NCBI GenBank assembly: GCA_002633005.1
Contig: NMRA01000257.1
Span: forward strand, 154,731 to 218,730
Length of the DNA stretch: 64,000 bases
Source: Phoronis australis
Taxonomy: Eukaryota; Animalia; Phoronida
Direction: 5' to 3'
Below the pieces are notes generated by a model, which was not told the origin of the DNA, searched no databases, and worked only from the letters and a program-made list of their open reading frames with translations. The position numbers and the translations under genes are program-made. Positions 6,501 through 62,264 of the stretch are shown one piece after another. The stretch's first letter is position 1. Each line of letters opens with the position of its first letter.

Positions 6501-9500
6501 GGAATAAGACAGCAGAACGAAGAGTAAGAAATTAAGAAAATTGATGGTAAAGCCAACACGGCCAAATCTTCGCCTGAAACAAAATGTGCAGAAAAAAAGT
6601 AACTTGATAAAAACGAGCCGCGCAAGACACATTAAAACGGCTTTCAAATCATTTATCCTGTTAGAATTGGTCTCATAATTATTCTTGGTCAGCTTTATGT
6701 TGATTTCTGGAGCTAGGAAAGAACTAGTAAGTCGTTATTACTTTGGGAAAGGCTTTACAAGTAGTATTGTCATAGTGTGTTATTTTATGTGCAGATAGAG
6801 CATGTTCGCAAGCTAATAACAAACTGCCAGTTATTTAGAGCCCAGGTGGCGCTGCTCATACGAAAAAGGGGGAAGAGGAGACCACTTTACAGTGATAAGT
6901 GGCCTGAATGAAACGTAAGTTCCTTTGTCAAAAAGCGAGTCGTTTTAAACGAAGAAGTTGGAAAAATTGAAGACCATTGGTTACTGAGCGTGTCGGCGTT
7001 GTGAAACTTAAATCCCACACAGAGATTTCGAGTTTTTTTACAGTAATTTATAACCGTGTGACTTGTGACCATTTGCGGCGACGAGTTCTTGCTTCGTGTC
7101 ACACAGTGAACAAATAAGACTTACCATTTGTGAGCCATCAGTGCCTGGCATAACGAATGAGAGAGAAGGTGTTCTCGCTTGTATTTCACCATAGTCTGCA
7201 ATGTTAAACAGTTACGTAACTTGGGAAAACTTAATATTTACTTATATAAAGTTATTCACGGAATCATTTTTTTCAAATTTAGCTATGATTAACCAGTATA
7301 AACGTGATACATCTTCTATGCAGCTTAGAACTACTGCTGCATATATAATTTCCCGTCTTTATCCTCAATCATTTAGGAAAACTCCGATTAATGCAGGTTT
7401 TCTTTTGTGGAATAGTTTATCACTGGAACTTAAAGTATTGTAACCAATGTATCTCTTTTTAATGTAATGGTTGAAATTGTGTTAAATAAATGATAATCCA
7501 ACCCCTGCCCCAACTAAATTACGTTTATCGCATGATTTGTTAACCAACTGAGAGCAGGGTTATACCTCAACTCACGAAAGTTCTATCATGATTTTACCAA
7601 CTGTACTCATAAGAGTATCTGTAGTGCAGCTAATAGTAATGCTCACTAATTGCTCACATGCCTTGTCTATAATGTTGAACGTGAACGGCACTTTCACAGC
7701 CTCCAATCCAATGATGAGATTTGGTTTCATTTTCATAGCCTTAACAATAAGCATGAAAAACTGACTTTTTAATTGTTACAAGGTTTTATTTTAAAATCTT
7801 CGTGGTTTCGTTTTTAAACGACATAGAAAGCAAGTGATTCAATTTCTAAGCTGTGCTGTGCTTTTTGTTGTTTCATTCTTTTTTGTTAATATAGGTGTGT
7901 TAGTCCTTTAATGTCGTTATTTTAGTTATTTTCTTTGTCGGAGTTGATTATTATAATTTTACATAACATGACAATTTATCGCCATGTATAAATGAAACTA
8001 GATATAATGATTGGTTTTCTAGGCTACTACCTTGTACTATTATTGTACATGACAAACACAAAATGCACAGCGTTTGCTAAGAAAGTCCGCGGACCTGTGT
8101 TCTTACAGCTGTCAAACATTTTCAGTCTTACCATCAAGGCCCAGTACTTCCTTTTCTTGCAACAAGCGTCATCTGGTGGTGGATCCACATAATCGAAACG
8201 ACACATCATCTGAAAAACAATGAGACTTCTATAATCGAATAGCGCACAGTCTCAGCATACGTCCATATGTCGGAGACTCTTAAAAGAGTCTCCGACATAT
8301 GGATTTTGACTATCTTTTTAGCGCCTACTGAATGTTTGAGGTGTACATGTAACTGGGAACCAATTGGTGCCCATTTGAGTAACTAGTGTTAGTTCATACA
8401 TTGAAGCATGTCAAGGTTATGTAGAGCCTTAGAAAAATGTCCAAATTTTGCTAATTTCGGAAAATCGTATTTCAGGTGAAACTTTCACATAATATACTTT
8501 ATGCAATGCTCTCAAAAACGAGTTGTAGGAGTTGTTTTTAAAGTGTTTCGCTTTTGCACGAACATTGTCAGAATAGGACTTTTTGATTTGCATGAAAAAA
8601 TCAAAAGTTGCACCTAGTCAAAACGAAATGACATTTTGGAAGACTGTAACAGCACTTTTAAGATTTTGTTGTAAAAATTATTTATCATTTAATTGATACC
8701 ACTGTTTTGTTCATTGACCCGACTCATGATAGATTGGTATGAAGTTAAAAATTGAAGTCTGCAAGCTTTCTATTTTCAGAAAATATATGCATATACTATT
8801 ACGAACTATACATGCACATACTATTACAAACTATACATGCACATACTATTACAAACTATACATGCATATACTATTACAAACTATACATGCATATACTATT
8901 ACAAACTACATGTATACATGCGTATACTATTACAAACTATACATGCATATACTATTACAAACTATACATGCATATACTATTACAAACTATATATGCATAT
9001 ACTATTACAAACTGAATTTCTAGAGTTTTGTAGACATTTGACTAAATGCACAGATTTCTCTATAAACTCCAACATAATCTTAACTACCGTGGAACTGCTC
9101 GTTATGAACTGTCGATTTTACATAAATGGCAAGACAACATGAGATACAAATCAACCACATAAAACTAAGTACAAATTACCGTTGATGTTGAGTCATTTAG
9201 CTGCATGCAATGGTTTAGCACAACTTCTGCACCTTCCGGTGTATACTTGATGAGATTTTCCATAGGTGTGAATCCCTCTCTGTCTCGCACCGACATCGCC
9301 TTTTCCCAGCTGTGAACGTATAGCGTTAGTGAAAAATATATTTTTTATCGATGTCATACATAATCCCATCAACTCTACATCCAGCTATGATTAGAGACCA
9401 GTTTCCGCGTGGTCTTCATTTTCGTGGTTGTGGGGTGTTTCCATAGAAGCGATTAACGGAACGTGTTCCTCAAATAATTCCCTTCCAATGGTTGCCTTTT

Positions 9501-18500: not shown

Positions 18501-21500
18501 CAATAAAAAACAGTTTACCTTCGTTGAGAATGTGAGTAACAACTGACCAAAAACCTTCCGCTGCAGCCGTCGCTAGTACAGTGCGCCCACTACTGTCCAC
18601 AGCTCTGAGATCAGCGCCCTGATCCAACTGAAAAGGATGATTTCATTTGACTTGTAAGAAGTAACTTGTCTTTCAAGAAATATCAGAAATCGTGTTTTTC
18701 GTTCGACTACAATTTATATTTTCTACTCCGTTATGCATATTTTGAAAAAAATCAAATTATAATGTATAAGTTGGTAGCTTACATTCGATAACCTGTTTTT
18801 TGTGGGAACATTTTGCTTCTTACGTATCATGGTCACTATATTCATTTTGAGAGAAATATACGTATGCTGCTATTCCAAGTACAAACAATCTCCAGGCACC
18901 AGGACAAAGCTTTTACACTCATCAGCACATTTCCTTCAATAATGAGCATAGCTCATTGACCAGATGAACTCAGTTCACCGGCTCACCGACCGCCGAACAC
19001 GTATTGGACCCCAAAAGCTTCGTCGCTCGGACTCCCAAACCCCGAGATACCCAACCATGTGGAGGAGTGGTCACGAAAAGAGACCTATTTTGGAGGATTT
19101 GGTCCCATAAACACAACTTTTTGTAGGGGTTAATTCCATCAATCGAAACCTTTCGTGAGGATTCGTGGACTCATACGGTACACGAAGAGATGCCACGTTG
19201 GTTGAAAATATAGGCAATAATAAAACACTTCTGTTGCTTTGTGTTGTTGAAAAGAAGAAACTTTTGTAGCCTTCCGTCCCCTAAAGTGAAATCTTTTACA
19301 GGTAATTAAATCGGAAAAAGCACAATTACGTAGGGAAATTAGTCGTGAAAATGTCACCCCATCCACCTGAGGGGCACGTGCCGTATACCTCGATGAGTAC
19401 CTCGTCTCAAATCCCGGATAATAATCATGGCTCGGTGACCCCATGTCCATGTACTGTACATGTACGCGTTTGGCGGTCAACAATGAGTTGTGTTTGCCAG
19501 TTCCGGGAACTAAACGAATTTTTGGGTGTGAAAGCCGAGTCCTGGATGCTGTTTGGAGATTAGTCGCCGCATTCGTACATCAACCGTGTTTGTAAGTGAA
19601 GAAGCCGTAGTTGGTGCAGGTACCTGATATAGGACGTAACATGTGTAGATTACTTACTAAAGCCGTGACAATATCAACGTTGTTCTGAAGGCACGCCTCG
19701 TGAAGAGGTGTGCATCCATCCAGATCAAAACAGTTGACGTCACAACCGTGAAGAAGAAGGCACTGGAATGAAATGCAGCCAGGGTGAGTCATTCCTTACA
19801 GTCAAGGTTACTTTAATGCATCATAACAAGCATCAACAGTACAAGTTCTCATTTTCCACTTTTTAGAATTCCCAGGGCAACCTATTACCTGATCATCTAT
19901 TATATAAAATGCATCGTTTGCACAAACTCCGTCTCCCCCACTCCCCTACAGACCTTCGTTGCGCCCGTTTCGGAACTGCCTTGGTCCCAGGTATTGCATC
20001 GACCCCCTTTTTGGATTCGAGGTGTTCTATTTTTTTTCTCGCGGGCCTTGGTGACGTCAGTCCGTCGGCACAACGGCCTGCCAGTGGGTGACGTCACTCC
20101 GTCGGCTTAATTTCACTCCCTCCGGCTTCCTGCGTCGCGTATATAATTTATCGGGCCTGTCGCCGCCAAAATTAATGATGTCTCATTAAAAAAATTTTAC
20201 TCTTCCTTGAAAAATTAAATTATTTACCCGGGTGTTGGAAAATTGGCGTTCTTCTTTGGGCGCCATTGCGTCACCTATTGGCCAATTTCCATGTTCTTCA
20301 ATCAACTGTGAGGTTGCTTACATGTCATAACAGTTGGAAGTGGTTTCATTTCGTTACAAGTTTTTACTATTGTAATACCAGAAAACCTAATTTCAGAACA
20401 AACTCTCGAGAGTTATCGCACAATTTTAGGAAACGGCGTGTACGTGCGCGTGTCACGAGTATCATCACTGTTTTCAAAACGACCCTGACGACAGAAAGTT
20501 CCTTTGTTACAAAAGGCAGAGAATTGCAAAATATAACGTCTATTAGATTTTTTTACTTCTACCAACGACTGTAACGGGCAAGGTGAATGTCGGTTCATTC
20601 CCAGATTCTGCATGCATCCCTGCAGGTTGTTATCTCTACTAGTNGCGTCACCTATTGGCCAATTTCCATGTTCTTCAATCAACTGTGAGGTTGCTTACAT
20701 GTCATAACAGTTGGAAGTGGTTTCATTTCGTTACAAGTTTTTACTATTGTAATACCAGAAAACCTAATTTCAGAACAAACTCTCGAGAGTTATCGCAAAA
20801 TTTTAGGAAATGGCGTGTACGTGCGCGTGTCACGAGTATCATCACTGTTTTCAAAACGACCCTGACGACAGAAAGTTCCTTTGTTACAAAAGGCAGAGTA
20901 TTGCAAAATATAACGTCTATTAGATTTTTTTACTTCTATCAACGACTGTAACGGGCAAGGTGAATGTCGGTTCATTCCCAGATTCAGCATGCATCCCTGC
21001 AGGTTGTTATCTCTACTAGTTTCAACACGAAGTGGCGAGCTGAGCACCCGGGTAGTGTGCAATTATTTCGTCGTCTAAACCGAGCTCTACACACAGCTAC
21101 CTCAGTCGCTGTATGTTGACGATAACACGGGTAACGGCTAGTACCTTTTAATGCAGGAAGTTTTTGTTTAATTAATATCTTAACTCACGGTGTTCAAAGG
21201 TATGAATACAGCCCTCTAATGGAAAGAACAACTTTCAAATCAATACTTCACACTCTGGGTTCAACAGCCATAGGCAAATCGCAATGTTCTCAATGTTTCC
21301 CGACCAGACGAGAAAAAGCCCATATGGCAGCTGTATTGTTTGCTTGTATACTTACAAGTATTGAGAACTGATTTTTTTTGTTTACCCATTAGCGCAGGCT
21401 TTTTCACTTTCCGTATAACAGTAGGGATTATGGATTTCTACGATTTTCAAAGTTATCTTCATCAAAATTAAACGAAGCATCAAGATCAATCTCACTAATT

Positions 21501-33946: not shown

Positions 33947-34866
33947 CAATTGATTTTCATTATTACTCTCAATTACTCTCAGCACTTAGTCTCCATCCTT
34001 GCAGATCTCTTATATTTGCAGAAAAGTATTTTCATTATGGTGCGGAGTATGAAAATATCTCAAAAAAATTACTATTTTTATCATCAAATAACTTATTACC
34101 ATGTATGCGCATTTTCAGGCCCATGCACCTTCAACTGAGTTGCATTTTCAAGAATTTCTTGGGTTCAGCGCATGTCCCTACGTCAAAGTTCGTCCTTGTA
34201 ATAGTTGCGAGTCTTGAGCAAGGCAGCTCCGGTAAACCGTTAACGAGAGCCACATGCGAGGATATTTTGGGTCGTCTTGACGACTATATGTATATGTACT
34301 GGGTTTTGTTTTGTAAAATTATAGCCTTGTGCGACTGACAAACCGGCTTCGGGTCACGGTATAGTTGTGGTGGCTGGAAAATTAGGCGTTTCCGGGGCTT
34401 CAGTGTTATCCTCACAACGTGTCACGTGTCTATAGTCGGGACTAGCCATAAAACCCATGAAACCATGGGTCGAATCGGTGCCTTACCAAAGTGATTACTA
34501 GTAGTCCGCGGCAAGCGCCGGTTTATCTCCGCCCGGGAGTCAACGCAAAAAAATCAAGTAGGCCTAAATGCCAAGCGAACATTTCTCAGTGTTTTTGATC
34601 AATGGATTTCATTTCCTCTGTTACCCTTTCTCGGAAACATTGTCTCTTTGTAGAATTTTAGAGGACTTGCGAAATGTGGACTCTGTGGGTTTCCACGACC
34701 GTATCATGTTGTTTGCCAGTTCACAACTGAGGCCGACCTGTTGACGAGACGCCCGGTCTCGCCACATGGTGAATGCCCGAGAGTGCATGCGGTTCGGGCA
34801 CAGGTTGTTGACCTATTCAGACTTTGACCTATTTTACTTTGTGAGGACTTGAAACACGTCGAAGAA

Positions 34867-34945
34867 ATGGCGTCAAAAAAATCGAACTCTACAAGCTTCA
34901 TGATTGCCGTTGACGGAAGTAAACATGCGGAAGAGGCTTTTAGAT
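34867..34945 (+). CDS. USP-1 exon 1
   Basis: MASKKSNSTSFMIAVDGSKHAEEAFR T|gtacgt, phase 1. Confidence 0.88.
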
Positions 34946-37900
34946 GTACGTAAAGAAAGAACTTTAAAGCCAGACTTGGTGCTTATTACGTAATTGTACT
35001 TAACGAGTTTCCTTGATGATGTTTGTACTGCCTGTATGTAGGCTATTGCTCGGTGACTGCCCTGCTGCTTTGCCTGGCAGTTACAGACTACAGTGTACAT
35101 TATAATTTATGTGTGTGTTTGTGCTGCGCTTTTTATCAACAGCTTGAAGGTGTCCATCTAAGGCGTTTAGTCCTGCAACAAAATGACCTTGATAGTTTTA
35201 TCCAGGGAAAGGCATAATTTGACAGATTACTTCGTACCCAAGTCAACTCCTGTATACCTTGGACAGTCAGTACTACAGTAGTGACCAGTGTCTCTTCTGA
35301 CCTGTTGAGGCTGTGTGGCCATCCCATTGGCCTGGTGGGTCACTGGTATTGACAAGGTGCCTGCAGGCATGTACCAAAAATTGCGGGTGGTACTTTCAGC
35401 AAGTTTTGCGGGACCCGCGTGGGGCAATTTTTGGTACACTCCTAGGGGCACCTTCACTTTGTCAGTGAGTATGAGTACCCCCTGGGCTCGTAGGCCTTCC
35501 CTTCCATATGCCAGAAGCTTAATTTTCTGCAGCCTATGCCTCACACTGATTAAACCATCAAAGTCTTGCTGCCATATAAGTACTTTTTGCACATAAAGGG
35601 ACTAGGAGGCCGTTGATGTCTTTATAACTCTTCTCCTCTCAAACAAATATAGTTCTGCAATTACACTTTTTCCAAACAGTTCCTCATTCATGCAGTTGCC
35701 CAAATTGATAGGTGACTATGATGTCATATGGATTTCATTTGTTTAATATATTTCCCACATTTCTTGTTTTGGGACGCTCTAAATGTAGTTAATAAAAGTG
35801 GTGTTCTCCTCAGATGACATATTAAGAAGTCTTCTTAACAACTGTTGTTCCTTTTTCTTGTTAGAAAAAAATCAATATTGCATTCAGTTTATATTTCTGT
35901 GGAAGAGAATAATCCGCATAGACTTTGAGAAAGGTTTTCATTGTTTTGATGAATTCTCAACTCATGTTCAAGAACACTAGTTCAACCAAGCTAAGGCACA
36001 CACACCAGTGAATGCAACCTTAATGCTAAAAGTAGTACCTTGCTTATCTAAACAATTTATTCCATCTCAGTAACTTACAAATTGATAATCGTTTTATTGT
36101 TTTTTTGGATCAACTGGTCTCTGTTGCGTGGAAACGGACTGAACTCATCATGTAGTAAAAACGAATGAAATGAATGCATACCAAAAACAGATTGGTGGCA
36201 CTAGGCTGTCCAGGCAGTGTGTGCATAGTCCACACACATAGTTCAGTCACGAATGATTGAAATACATGCATGTACGGACTAAGCAGTGTGGCTGTGACCC
36301 ACTAACCATGGAACACAAAGACCCAGACAAAGAGTTGGTCTGTTAAATACATCAGAAACATTGTGATGATTCCCACATTGGTACCCGTATAACAGTCAAA
36401 TTGCATTGTAACGTAGCTGATAAAGGTTGGCTGGCTTAAAACCTTCCATTCCTCTTACTTCCAAACCCGCTATACTGTACATAAGTTGCCTTGGTTACAA
36501 ACTTTGGTTGCAACAAATACCGTGTGTTGTAATTTGGTTCGATTGTTATTTCCAAAAATAGGAAAAGATCATATAATCTGTTTAGGAGCTTTGATTGCAA
36601 ATAGCTAGGGACTACTGCATGCTTTTTTCACATAAATTGCATATCAGGCTATTCTCTTGTCATCAATTTCATGAGGTCTGCCTCAAGTACTTTTAACTTG
36701 AAATAGAAAAGCTTATCGAGACATTGCGTTTATCACAGTCTGTCACGGACTTTGTCACAGACTTTGTCACAGACTTTGTCACAGACTTTGTCACAGACTT
36801 TTGTCACAGACTCTGTCACAGACTCTGTCACAGACTCTGTCACAGACTCTGTCACAGACTCTGTCACAGACTCTGTCACAGACTCTGTCACAGACTTTGT
36901 CACAGACTTTTGCTGGTGTTTCAGACTACTATGCTAAGCTTCATTGTCCAGTGAACAAAGTACGAGTTGTACATGCAGCTGAAGTGCCAAGCCGAACTAC
37001 ATATACCTACAATGGAAATATACGTAAGCCAGTTGGAATGTTGTGATTCTTATTTCAGATTATTACGATAAAATCCATCGCCAAGGAAACCAAGTGAAGG
37101 TGGTACACGCTGCAGAAGTACCTAGCCGAACTACTTACTCGTATAGTGCTAATATACGTAAGGCTTGTGTGGCTTTGTACCCTCCATAGTAGTAGTACGC
37201 TTTAAAACTACTATTTCGCAGCTGCACAAACTGTCGCAATTCTCAAATTGCTATAATTTGTGTAAATCTTTAATGCACACACCAATAATAATTTGCGTAA
37301 ATTTTCAAAGCACACACCAAATTGCTTTAATACTGCAATACTCGTTAATTTCCGTATGACATTATCATGTACGACTGCATTTCAAAATAAAAAGACAAGC
37401 TTTCCAAGGTTTTTCCCACCAAATCCCCCTCGGCACTTACAACTATTTTTCTTAAGCTTTAAACCCTGCAGACATAGAAGCTTGATTGTCCCACCTCTGC
37501 TGTGTTCTTGTAAAACTGACTTGACTGACAAAACAGCAACTTAGTAATAATTAGTTAGGAGAGTAGTGAGTCCTTTTGGCCACTTTTGGTTGGCTGATAC
37601 ATGTACATGCAGCATTTATCATTTCCAGTAACACACTTTTAGCCACTCACATATTCTTACCATGAATTTAAGATGAATGATTGAACATTCATGTGTAACA
37701 ATTCACTTGTACCTTTTTCAGCACCTATGACGATACCCGAATCTGAGTGGCAGAAGGTGTTAGCTGATCACATGACACACATTAAGAAACTGGAGAAGAA
37801 GTACCAGGAGATGTGTGCGAAACAAGAGGTAATTGTAACAATCCAGGCCGGGCCTCTAACTATGGTTGTGATTCACTGTGAGAACTAGTTTGCCATTTTC

Positions 37901-39520
37901 ATGAGATTTTCAGTTGTAACTTGCTTATCGTTAGTGTTTCTGTGGTGGTAAGATAAGGAACTATAGCCGACTTTGTGATCGGGAATTTAGCATTTCAACA
38001 CATTGAACATCAAATGCAAGCTTGGAAATGTTTTGGCCTTTATTCAACTCCCCACATAGAGCTGTCGCCTTCACAATCCACTGGGGTGTCGTCACTGTCA
38101 TGTATTTTCTGAGGAGAATCTAGCCAAATAAAAATACATGGCAATATCTTGCGTAATCTCGCAGTCTTGCTTTTTAGCGAGGTCTTAGCATAGGTCCTAG
38201 CGTTATTGAACTCTATCCAGTACCTACCCAGGGATTATATGGTTCCAATCTATTCTTGCTCATGATTGGTCATAGAAATGATGTTGAGTAACTTAGCAAC
38301 AAAAGCTTGCCCTCCTAACATTGTAATTGACTTTTACTTTTAGTTTCATGCTGATTTCTATGGGGTGAGGCAACAGCAGTTCTCATCTCACTGTTTACTT
38401 AAACTGTGCTGCTGTTAGTTCGAAGTAAATGCCACCTCTGATGTGACTCCTGTCAGGATAGTCAACTCATGTAACACACTTTGCACACTTAAAATTAATC
38501 TGAGAGCTGCCTGCACTGTGTGACTGATGGGTGTATTTAGTATTTATTTATTATAGTGACAAGTACAACTAAATCAAACAGTTATAGTTATAACATTCGT
38601 AAGAAAGATAAGTACCCAGCCCAGTTGGGCTTATTAGTCACTTTAACCAAAAGCAGACTTGATATATTTGCCAAATTGCCTAGGGAAATACTGAAATAGC
38701 AGTTTTAACGTATCTAATTTACTGAAATGTACAAAGTTCGGGATTTGAAGTGAAACATTATTAAACAGAATAGACCTATGTGAGTTATAAAGAGAACAAT
38801 CAAACACAAAGTGTACCTCATCCTCCACAGAGCCAGAGTCACAACACAAGCAAAGTCTTTCACTTACAGGATTGTTTACATAACGACCAGTTTCCAAGTG
38901 CAATGTCTTGCTCTAAGCTGAGCCAGAAGAGATTGCTAGGAACGAGATAGATTAATCTTTACATACGGCTCAGTTAAAAACTCGTGCTTAAATAAAATGT
39001 AGGTTCTTAACTTAGGTTTAGTTACAACAGATTCAGCCCAAGCATGTATGGGCATGATGTATAATTTAACTACCTCAACACTATCGTTAGCATTTTTGTA
39101 TTAATTTTATATTTGAATACCATTGTCTCAACATTATTGTTAAGTATTTGTATTGTTTTGTTTGAAGAATAAATGGTAAAAAGGTCATACAGTCAGGAGC
39201 TTGATTGTATTTTCGACTTTCATAAGGCCTACTGGAGGCTGGAATGAAACTAGTATTGTCTGTGCGCTGTTATAGCTGTGGTGCTTAAACACACATCAGT
39301 CTTTTGATCCTTCCTCTTCTAGCCCCCATGTGAAGTTGAGACAGTCCACACGAGTCACCCTGGTGCCGGACTAGTCCATTATGCCAAGGACCATAAGGTG
39401 GATCAGGTCGTCATTGGTACCCGTGGAATGAACACATTCCGACGCACATTCCTGGGCAGTGTCAGCGACTATGTACTTCATCATCTGCACAAGCCTATCA
39501 CGGTTGTCCCAGCTCCATAG
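34867..39520 (+). CDS. Universal stress protein (USP/UspA family), ATP-binding type, 160 aa, with alternative exon 2a/2b
   Basis: Exons 34867-34945, [36925-37023 or 37059-37157], 37722-37828, 39323-39520. N-terminal IAVDGSKHAEEAF, VVHAAE strand, C-terminal VVIGTRGMNTFRRTFLGSVSDYVLHH with intact G-2x-G-9x-GS motif. Confidence 0.92.
36739..36910. repeat. 12-bp minisatellite (about 14 copies)
   Basis: Unit ctYtgtcacaga, ending 14 nt before the USP-1 exon 2a acceptor. Confidence 0.95.
36925..37023 (+). CDS. USP-1 exon 2a (putative mutually exclusive)
   Basis: tttcag|AC...C|gtaagc, 99 nt, (Y)YYAKLHCPVNKVRVVHAAEVPSRTTYTYNGNI. Confidence 0.78.
37059..37157 (+). CDS. USP-1 exon 2b (putative mutually exclusive)
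   Basis: tttcag|AT...C|gtaagg, 99 nt, (Y)YYDKIHRQGNQVKVVHAAEVPSRTTYSYSANI. Confidence 0.85.
37722..37828 (+). CDS. USP-1 exon 3
   Basis: tttttcag|CA...GAG|gtaatt; PMTIPESEWQKVLADHMTHIKKLEKKYQEMCAKQE. Confidence 0.88.
38540..39050 (-). mobile_element. 3' end of non-LTR retrotransposon ORF2 (CCHC-type C-terminal motif)
   Basis: KPKLRTYILFK...EPY; LHLETGRY...RLCLCCDSGSVEDEVHFVFDCSLY; AATAAATAAATA tail on minus strand near 38541. Confidence 0.75.
39323..39520 (+). CDS. USP-1 exon 4 (terminal)
   Basis: cttctag|CCC...TAG; PPCEVETVHTSHPGAGLVHYAKDHKVDQVVIGTRGMNTFRRTFLGSVSDYVLHHLHKPITVVPAP*. Confidence 0.92.
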   Translation, partial: PPCEVETVHTSHPGAGLVHYAKDHKVDQVVIGTRGMNTFRRTFLGSVSDYVLHHLHKPITVVPAP

Positions 39521-40131
39521 AGAGAAACATGCCATGCGCATCACATTGTGCCATAGTGTTTCGTAGTTATAAAGGGTTTTCATAAATTCTGGAAATGGAT
39601 GGTGTGGTATATTGCCTCATTTGTATAGCTTTCACCTTCGGTATCTTATTGCTCTTTAGTAAAGGCTTAACTCCAGAATTGGTGCCATAACTTAATCTTT
39701 CACCAAGTAATCATGAAGTACAATTCTGACAAGTTACGACTATTGCCTTACAGGTCTGTGTTAAAATATAGGGTTTAGTCTTACTTTATGTTTTGTTATT
39801 CTGATAGCTTTGGCTGGCATTTCTTGTTTGATTTTTAAAGATGTATTTGCATGCCCCTAACTGTGCTAATCTATATCAGGGACTAAACGAGGATGCTATT
39901 TTAACATAATCTACACTTAACAAATTGCAGTTGTATTCATTGAGAACTTGTAAAATGTGAAAACAAAAAAAATCTGCAAATAAGTGACCTTTGCACTAAT
40001 GACGTAACATGAAAACTCACATAACCCGCATCATGCAGTGTTATTTCCCAACACCACGTCACGATACTCACTGGATAGGGTCCAGTGATTTACAACGGTT
40101 CATTTTCGACACAAAACTCATTCTTAAAAAC

Positions 40132-48783: not shown

Positions 48784-49362
48784 ATGTACGCAAGCTGCAA
48801 GTGTGTAATTGTGGGTGACAGTACTTGTGGAAAAAGCAGCCTTCTACACGTGTACACCGAGAATGAATTCCCTACTCATTACATACCCAATGTTATCGAA
48901 GATTTTTCGTGTGAGATGGAACTGAACGAAACGCAAGTGGACCTGAGTTTGTGTGCGGTGGCCGGACACGAGGAGTACGACCACATAAGAGTTTTGTCTT
49001 ACCCGAACTCCGATGTTGTCGTGGTGTGTTTCTCGATTGACAACAAGAACAGTTTAGAAAATGTTCTTACCAAGTGGCTGCCAGAAACGCGTTTGCACTG
49101 TCCGACTGTTCCGATTATTTTGGTGGGAAACAAAACTGATTTGAGAAGTCGATGTAACAACAACCAACTACATCTTCTCTCGGAAGATGCTGGATTGACC
49201 ATGTCCAAGAAAATAGGGGCTCGTTGTTATTTGGAGTGCTCAGCAAAGTTGAAAACTGGGATACAAACAGTGTTTGAAACAGCTGTTAAACTTGCAATGA
49301 AAGACAGAGCAAAGACTCACCAAAAGAAAAAGTATACAGAACATAGCTGCAATGTGCTTTAA
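48784..49362 (+). CDS. Atypical Rho-family small GTPase, intronless, 192 aa
   Basis: Single open ORF from ATG 48784: KCVIVGDSTCGKS (G1), YIPNVIEDF (switch I), AVAGHEEYDHIRVLSYP (G3/switch II), NKTD (G4), ECSAK (G5), polybasic tail and CAAX CNVL. Confidence 0.9.
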   Translation: MYASCKCVIVGDSTCGKSSLLHVYTENEFPTHYIPNVIEDFSCEMELNETQVDLSLCAVAGHEEYDHIRVLSYPNSDVVVVCFSIDNKNSLENVLTKWLPETRLHCPTVPIILVGNKTDLRSRCNNNQLHLLSEDAGLTMSKKIGARCYLECSAKLKTGIQTVFETAVKLAMKDRAKTHQKKKYTEHSCNVL

Positions 49363-62001: not shown

Positions 62002-62264
62002 CTGGCAGTAGACGGTGGTTCTGTCCACAAAAGGCATACCGTCTCTATAGCTGGTAGTAGAGACGGTGGTACTGTCCACAAAAGGCATACCATCTCTATA
62101 GCTGGCAGTAGAGACGATGGTACTGTCCACAAAAGGCATACCGTCTCTATAGCTGGCAGTAGAGACGGTGGTACTGTCCACAAAAGGCATACCGTCTTTA
62201 TAGCTGGCAGTAGAGACGGTGGTACTGTCCATAAAAGGCATACCGTCTCTATAGCTGGCAGTAG
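62002..62264. repeat. 51-bp minisatellite (about 5 copies) with internal 10-bp inverted repeat
   Basis: Unit ctggcagtagagacggtggtactgtccacaaaaggcataccgtctctatag. Confidence 0.95.

What the first reader, a model, noticed from the sequence alone, without database searches (positions are those of the whole stretch)
36925..37157. Tandem, sterically mutually exclusive exons in an animal universal stress protein gene
Seen: two homologous exons of identical length (99 nt) and phase (1/1), each with a tttcag acceptor and gtaag donor, separated by only 35 nt (37024-37058). The conserved core VVHAAEVPSRTTY differs mostly at synonymous sites (CAT/CAC, GCA GCT/GCT GCA, GTG/GTA, CCA/CCT, ACA/ACT, TAT/TAC). 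The flanks differ in amino acids (AKLHCPVNKVR vs DKIHRQGNQVK; only 2a has a Cys). Established: very short spacing between duplicated exons can enforce mutual exclusion sterically, as in alpha-tropomyosin-type MXEs. Inference: both exons are under purifying selection and produce two 160-aa USP isoforms, one possibly redox-sensitive. I do not know of MXE splicing described for animal USPs. The paralog USP-2 in this window has a single exon 2.
Basis: partly seen in the sequence, partly recalled or inferred. Interest (0 to 1): 0.8.

Follow-up and report, generated by a model that had tools for sequence, protein, structure and literature searches.

The report
Either-or exons in animal stress protein
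An invertebrate universal stress protein gene carries two old copies of one exon, and RNA reads show each copy used in about half of the messages and never both together, likely because the 35-base gap between them is too short to splice: a known trick, seen here in a gene family where we found no report of it.

Summary
Confirmed, with RNA support. Exons 2a (36925-37023) and 2b (37059-37157) are 99 nt each, phase 1/1, 68/99 nt and 22/32 aa identical, 35 nt apart. In 3 of 3 raw RNA runs both are joined to exon 3 (74/47/126 and 74/77/101 reads) and carry exon-1 tails; no 2a-2b joint is listed and intron depth is zero. Synonymous sites are saturated (pS 0.89, pN 0.14): an old duplication under purifying selection. 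Double inclusion stays in frame, so decay cannot police it; U12 signals and docking-site pairings were not found. Steric block is the best mechanism but is inferred: the organism is unidentified, and some flatworms splice ~32-nt introns. 2b resembles the family; 2a is derived and adds Cys34; redox sensing is untested. Single-locus origin was not phased. The mechanism is known from C. elegans 14-30-nt introns; no USP case turned up in five literature searches or in this scan's notes. New member of a known kind.

The parts
34867..34945 (+). USP-1 exon 1, coding part (ATG to phase-1 donor); strand beta1 and most of helix alpha1
   Evidence: its 3' letters are the loose ends of reads at 36925 and 37059
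36739..36908 (.). 12-bp minisatellite, 14.1 copies, ending 16 nt before the 2a acceptor; predicted long RNA hairpin that holds the branch-point-like sites of 2a
   Evidence: fold -81.0 kcal/mol, z -4.6; TNAY sites at -47, -35, -23. A role in splicing is untested
36925..37023 (+). exon 2a, 99 nt, phase 1/1; derived copy, encodes Cys34
   Evidence: joint 37023>37722 in 74/47/126 reads
37024..37058 (+). 35-nt GT..AG spacer that carries the 2a donor and the 2b acceptor; not seen excised, not seen retained; in-frame TGA at 37044 if retained
   Evidence: depth 0 in bin 37027-37056 in 4 of 4 runs, no 37023>37059 joint
37059..37157 (+). exon 2b, 99 nt, phase 1/1; family-like copy
   Evidence: joint 37157>37722 in 74/77/101 reads and one contig
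37722..37828 (+). exon 3 (helix alpha2)
39323..39520 (+). exon 4 coding part to stop TAG; Pfam Usp; motif G-2x-G-9x-G-S; 3' UTR continues to about 39800

Best explanation
The gene makes two 160-aa universal stress protein messages by using exon 2a or exon 2b, an old tandem duplicate pair, and the two are likely kept apart because the 35-nt spacer is too short for the spliceosome to excise. Shown: both exons are spliced to the same neighbours at 40-60% each, the 2a-2b joint and the retained spacer are absent, both exons are under purifying selection. Inferred: U1 on the 2a donor and U2/U2AF on the 2b branch point and acceptor compete for the same 35 nt, so defining one exon blocks the other; a retained spacer would bring a stop (37044) and be cleared by nonsense-mediated decay. 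Inferred by mapping to a homologue model: the swap changes 10 residues in the end of helix alpha1, the alpha1-beta2 loop, the start of beta2 and the beta2-alpha2 loop, leaves the nucleotide-facing end of beta2 and the ATP motif unchanged, and so would alter surface or partner properties rather than nucleotide binding.
For: Joints 37023>37722 74/47/126 and 37157>37722 74/77/101; exon-1 tails at 36925 91/62/133 and at 37059 64/68/90; no 2a-2b joint among 276 reads leaving the 2a donor; the tool does list short skips (a 21-nt one). Zero depth in the spacer. Double inclusion (193 aa) and skipping (127 aa) are both in frame, yet only skipping shows up, in a few reads: the asymmetry fits a physical block. 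Donor-to-branch distance cannot exceed 33 nt, under the 50-nt criterion of PMC5740500 and the 40-nt floor of PMC4165533 (passages). None of 4 U12 motifs in 34946-37721; 4 of 4 docking-site tests no better than shuffles. Other introns of the two USP genes are 564-1979 nt, and 15 of 15 gaps between coding hits of the TRPA1-like gene are 304 nt or more. pN/pS 0.16.
Against: The organism is not identified (best USP relatives 37-39% identical, from cnidarians, nemerteans, annelids, molluscs, flatworms), so its minimum intron size is unknown; a monogenean flatworm has an intron mode at ~32 nt (PMC4040987) and myxozoans go below 30 nt (PMC13644364). Gaps between hits are upper bounds on intron length. 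Joints under 3 reads per run are not listed, so up to about 4% double inclusion could hide. The three raw runs are one study, 18-19% of each was read. Exon choice was not phased with exon-4 variants, whose share loosely follows the 2b share. No protein evidence. The structure mapping rests on a homologue's model, not on these isoforms.
Confidence: 0.75

Rival explanations
1. The exons are mutually exclusive, but by active regulation (splicing factors or RNA structure) in an animal that can splice 35-nt introns.
For: Some animals splice introns this short (PMC4040987, PMC13644364). The spacer has a good donor, a TTTCAG acceptor and branch-like A's at -22/-21 and -13. The 2a share differs among runs at the downstream joint (0.50/0.38/0.56, p 0.007), so some tuning exists.
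Against: No structure above shuffles across the pair (z -0.45), the spacer (z -0.38) or 4 docking tests. Flatworm USP genes are mostly intronless (PMC5793430), while this gene has three intron positions, the first two matching a clam USP. No leak in 276 reads, while skipping does leak.
Confidence: 0.12
2. The two messages come from two near-identical gene copies, or from alleles, each locked to one exon.
For: Three variants at 39496, 39563 and 39579 sit at 41-56% in 3 of 3 raw runs and loosely follow the 2b share (0.46/0.57/0.42); the contig run shows only 2b together with the variant letters, in separate contigs.
Against: None of 9 variant shares differs from 0.5, none of 3 differs among runs at p<0.05: plain heterozygosity fits. 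2a is itself heterozygous at 36968 in two runs at 58/122 and 44/86, so both alleles of a single locus make 2a. Both exons lie intact on one genomic sequence and are far older (saturated synonymous sites) than any copy pair differing by three letters.
Confidence: 0.06
3. On function only: the two isoforms do the same job; both exons are kept to the fold because each supplies half of the protein, and the 2a changes are tolerated drift.
For: Changes fall in loops that vary across the family; co-expression near 1:1 in 3 of 3 runs; no relative with the same pair among 49 within-cluster comparisons.
Against: A redundant copy would be expected to decay over a span that saturates synonymous sites (inference). 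2a departs from family-preferred residues at 7 of 10 sites, including Arg/Lys to Cys and Gly to Val.
Confidence: 0.3

Closest known systems
C. elegans mutually exclusive exons with ultra-short intervening introns: egl-15 5B/5A (14 nt), let-2 9/10 (30 nt), bet-2, gly-5, gly-6 (PMC4165533, passages)
   Same: Intervening intron under 40 nt never excised; exon lengths are multiples of three, so decay cannot enforce the choice.
   Different: Other genes and lineage; there the minimum intron size (~40 nt) is known, here it is not.
Alpha-tropomyosin exons 2/3 and the 57 human clusters with donor-to-branch distance under 50 nt (PMC5740500 passages; Smith and Nadal-Ginard 1989 seen only as a cited title)
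   Same: Too little room between donor and branch point.
   Different: There an unusual branch-point position does it (details recalled); here the whole intron is 35 nt.
coq-2 exons 6a/6e in helminths, annelids and molluscs (PMC7434440, passages)
   Same: Homologous either-or exons in an invertebrate gene, one family-like and one derived, both abundant.
   Different: coq-2e remodels the enzyme core and has a proven function; here the changes map to loops and no function is shown.
Oyster alternative oxidase duplicated exon 10 (PMC5589949, passages)
   Same: Duplicated exon (63-66% nt alike) in an invertebrate stress gene, first copy derived, same-length proteins.
   Different: Terminal exon with alternative 3' splice site, stress switch measured; here an internal cassette pair, no stress data.
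Metazoan single-domain USPs, Pfam PF00582; MJ0577-type ATP-binding USPs (PDB 1mjh)
   Same: Domain, intact G-2x-G-9x-G-S motif, about 160 aa; a Mya arenaria USP has an annotated isoform lacking the same exon-2 segment in frame (XP_052798679.1 vs XP_052798680.1).
   Different: The family is described as diversifying by tandem gene duplication and retroposition (PMC5793430); here one exon is duplicated inside a gene.

Membership tests
Homologous mutually exclusive exons | Tandem homologous exons of like length and the same phase | tested here: met
   99/99 nt, phase 1/1, 68/99 nt identical
Homologous mutually exclusive exons | Each exon spliced to the same upstream and downstream exons | tested here: met
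   joints to 37722 and exon-1 loose ends in 3 of 3 raw runs; exon 1 was not in the laid stretch, so the upstream joint is read from loose ends
Homologous mutually exclusive exons | Not included together | tested here: met
   no joint listed among 276 reads leaving the 2a donor; spacer depth 0; listing floor 3 reads per run
Homologous mutually exclusive exons | Both forms come from one locus | tested here: inconclusive
   2a is heterozygous in two runs, but exon choice could not be phased with exon-4 variants
Homologous mutually exclusive exons | Both forms translated | not testable with these tools
   purifying selection on both is indirect support
Steric-interference class | Donor-to-branch-point distance under about 50 nt | tested here: met
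   whole spacer is 35 nt; criterion from PMC5740500
Steric-interference class | Spacer below the organism's minimum intron size | tested here: inconclusive
   organism unidentified; other introns and coding gaps in the window are 304 nt or more
Steric-interference class | Lengthening the spacer lifts the exclusion | not testable with these tools
   needs a minigene
Decay-enforced class | Double inclusion or skipping shifts the frame | tested here: not met
   193-aa and 127-aa products are open
U2/U12 incompatibility class | U12-type donor or branch site on a flanking intron | tested here: not met
   0 of 4 recalled U12 motifs in 34946-37721; donors read GTACGT, GTAAGC, GTAAGG
Docking site-selector class | Competing intronic pairings, usually conserved | tested here: inconclusive
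   4 of 4 duplex tests no better than shuffles; conservation could not be tested without orthologous genomes
USP (PF00582), ATP-binding type | Usp domain above Pfam cut-off | tested here: met
   exon 4 alone 59.7 bits vs cut-off 24; isoforms score 169 and 177 bits on a profile of 21 relatives
USP (PF00582), ATP-binding type | G-2x-G-9x-G-S/T motif | tested here: met
   residues 127-141 in both isoforms; motif as in PMC5793430
USP (PF00582), ATP-binding type | Nucleotide binding and stress-linked role | not testable with these tools
   no assay; sample conditions not given

The most novel reading that the evidence does not exclude
Exon 2a builds a redox-sensing USP: Cys34 replaces a mostly basic loop residue on the same face as Cys91/Cys98, and the share of this form is set by stress or tissue and tuned in cis by the length of the hairpin-forming minisatellite over the 2a branch point. 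This would be sub-gene neofunctionalisation of an animal USP with a repeat-length dial.
Probability: 0.1. Interest if true: 0.65.

Novelty: new member of a known kind. Interest (0 to 1): 0.42.

Why it matters
Animal USPs have no settled function. A natural pair that differs at 10 loop residues and has been kept for a long time points to the surface that matters and gives a clean two-protein comparison. It is also an RNA-validated, very compact case for testing steric exclusion outside nematodes, flies and vertebrates. The splicing mechanism itself is known, and no relative with the same pair was found, so the reach is modest.

Tried and rejected
No whole genome is held, so intron-size distribution, copy number and paralog count could not be computed. 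Taxon: three protein searches (USP exon 4, Rho-like ORF, ankyrin exon) and one full-library search found no close relative (USP 37-39% over full length, Rho about 50%). Run search listed no RNA holder by words; the same-species raw runs were laid instead. Pseudo-exon: rejected (reads, pN/pS). Alleles misassembled in tandem: rejected (2a itself heterozygous; 31% divergence). Third exon-2 copy: none among 50 candidates in USP-1 beyond overlaps of 2a/2b, none among 19 in USP-2. Same pair in relatives: 49 within-cluster pairs from 10 multi-member clusters (20 clusters looked up) showed no block of differences confined to exon 2; these are distant paralogs, so this is weak. Rfam: 0 matches in 34800-39900. 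The isoforms themselves were not folded; a homologue (P0162, pLDDT 87.6, best matches 1wjg, 3s3t, 1mjh) served for mapping, so Cys distances are open. Earlier scan notes: 2 unrelated by words, none by place or sequence.

Full report
Observation. The window holds a USP gene on the + strand: exon 1 coding 34867-34945, exon 2a 36925-37023, exon 2b 37059-37157, exon 3 37722-37828, exon 4 coding 39323-39520. 2a and 2b are 99 nt, phase 1/1, each with a TTTCAG acceptor and a GTAAG donor, 35 nt apart. They match at 68 of 99 bases; the best other ungapped match on either strand of the window is 48. 22 of 32 codons give the same residue, 13 of these by a different codon. pS is 0.886 (saturated) and pN 0.142, Fisher p 2e-11; the 13-codon core has 8 synonymous and no non-synonymous differences. 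The duplication is therefore old and both copies have been held to the protein (inference from these counts). Either exon gives 160 aa; both together give 193 aa and neither 127 aa, all in frame.

RNA. The run search gave one contig run holding 0.14 of the words and three raw RNA runs of the same species label, one study. All 4 were laid twice; 18-19% of each raw run was read. Joint 37023>37722: 74, 47, 126 reads. Joint 37157>37722: 74, 77, 101 reads and the one contig. Loose ends that spell the end of exon 1 stand before 36925 (91, 62, 133 reads) and before 37059 (64, 68, 90), agreement 0.98-1; exon 1 itself was outside the laid stretch. No 37023>37059 joint and no deletion is listed; the bin 37027-37056 has depth 0 in 4 of 4 runs. 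The tool lists joints from 3 reads and did list a 21-nt skip elsewhere. With 276 reads leaving the 2a donor, double inclusion is under about 1% if truly zero and under about 4% if two reads per run were hidden. A few reads skip both exons: loose ends before 37722 begin with exon-1 letters in X3 (6 reads, median 57 letters) and X4 (23 reads, mostly short overhangs), not in X2. The 2a share is 0.54, 0.43, 0.58 over both joints; runs differ at the downstream joint (p 0.007) but not clearly at the upstream one (p 0.07). Sample conditions are not given. The contig run shows only 2b, which is presence, not absence.

One locus or two. Position 36968 in 2a is heterozygous in two runs (58/122, 44/86; synonymous) and fixed in the third, so 2a and 2b are not alleles. 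Against a clean reading: three variants in exon 4 and the 3' UTR lie at 41-56% in all three raw runs and loosely follow the 2b share; none of 9 shares differs from one half and none of 3 differs among runs at p<0.05. Ordinary heterozygosity explains this, but I could not phase it; I leave 0.06 for two copies or allele-locked choice.

Mechanism. Decay cannot enforce the choice because both exons are multiples of three. No U12 motif (four recalled patterns) lies in 34946-37721. Folding of the pair and of the spacer is no better than shuffles (z -0.45, -0.38) and 4 of 4 docking-site duplex tests are no better than shuffles. What remains is the spacer's size. PMC4165533 (passages) reports that C. 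elegans intervening introns of 14 and 30 nt were never excised, puts the floor near 40 nt and notes that all such exons are multiples of three, as here. PMC5740500 (passages) uses a donor-to-branch distance under 50 nt and finds 57 such human clusters. In our spacer that distance is at most 33 nt; branch-like A's lie at -22/-21 and -13. I infer that U1 at the 2a donor and U2/U2AF at the 2b acceptor cannot sit together, so defining one exon blocks the other; retention would add a stop at 37044 and is not seen. That skipping leaks while joining does not fits this. The open point is the organism. [quoted passage not shown] This genome does not look compact: the six other introns measured in the two USP genes are 564-1979 nt and 15 of 15 gaps between coding hits of a TRPA1-like gene are 304-5006 nt (upper bounds). 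Flatworm USP genes are mostly intronless (PMC5793430, passages), while a clam USP isoform pair differs by exactly the exon-2 segment. This is indirect.

Protein. Exon 4 matches Pfam Usp (59.7 bits) and the G-2x-G-9x-G-S motif is intact. Nearest full-length relatives are 37-39% identical and come from several invertebrate phyla. On a profile of 21 relatives 2b scores 177 bits and 2a 169; at the 10 differing sites the 2b residue is commoner at 7, the 2a residue at 2, neither at 1; Cys34 stands where 16 of 21 have Arg or Lys and none Cys. By alignment to a model of relative P0162 (fold matches 1wjg, 3s3t, 1mjh), exon 2 covers the end of alpha1, the alpha1-beta2 loop, beta2 and the loop before alpha2. 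The end of beta2 that faces the nucleotide in MJ0577 (contact recalled; alignment) is the same in both exons. By topology Cys34 would be on the same face as Cys91 and Cys98 of the constant exons; that is inference, the isoforms were not folded. Redox sensing is untested.

A lead. A 12-bp minisatellite (14.1 copies) ends 16 nt before the 2a acceptor, is predicted to fold into a long hairpin (-81 kcal/mol, z -4.6) and holds all three branch-like sites within 60 nt of 2a. Near-palindromic repeats fold well by construction, and 2a is well used, so this is only a possible dial.

Known or new. The splicing type is well known. Close analogues in invertebrate stress or hypoxia genes are coq-2 (PMC7434440, passages) and oyster alternative oxidase (PMC5589949, passages). 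For USPs: 'universal stress protein' with 'mutually exclusive exons' gave 1 paper, on rice blast (listing only); others (3,966 papers, 20 listed; 151, 20 listed; 4, 3 listed, none opened; 171, 25 listed, none of these with the USP term) showed no animal USP case in their listings. A USP review mentions alternative splicing once, for rice (PMC10003552, passages); the flatworm USP paper has no 'splic' word. Foret et al. 2011 was seen only as a citation. Supplementary catalogues of splicing events were not opened and may list such a case. The scan's notes hold nothing on this DNA or look-alikes.

Verdict. Real, RNA-supported mutually exclusive exon pair; steric block likely (0.75); new member of a known kind; interest 0.42.

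Noticed in passing
window 60558-56510 (-): USP-2, 156 aa, exons 60558-60498, 59027-58938, 58037-57922, 56713-56510; same three intron positions, single exon 2; first Gly of the ATP motif is Ala. Converges tail to tail with USP-1.
   Followed up: partly
window 39441-39483: Reads of another expressed USP paralog, not in this window, lie on the conserved motif stretch in all four runs.
   Followed up: partly
window about 27200-330 (-): Multi-exon TRPA1-like gene: ankyrin repeats followed by channel segments, at least 16 coding hits.
   Followed up: partly
window 48790-49362 (+): Intronless, divergent Rho-like GTPase ORF, about 50% identical to its best relatives; top-scoring hits are ~320-aa Rho proteins of molluscs and other invertebrates. 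Possibly a retrocopy.
   Followed up: partly
window 36739-36908: 12-bp near-palindromic minisatellite just upstream of exon 2a, predicted long hairpin over the branch-point region.
   Followed up: partly
window 38112-38211 and 38512-39050: Dispersed repeats in intron 3 attract divergent reads on both strands; the first gives opposite-strand joints like a palindromic element.
   Followed up: no
window 20267-21020; 8783-9013; 62002-62264: Two copies of a 377-bp unit (98% alike), a 25-bp and a 51-bp minisatellite.
   Followed up: no
proteins P0404 and P0006 (Mya arenaria): Annotated isoforms X1 and X2 differ by in-frame loss of the 27-residue exon-2 segment, like the rare skip form here.
   Followed up: yes
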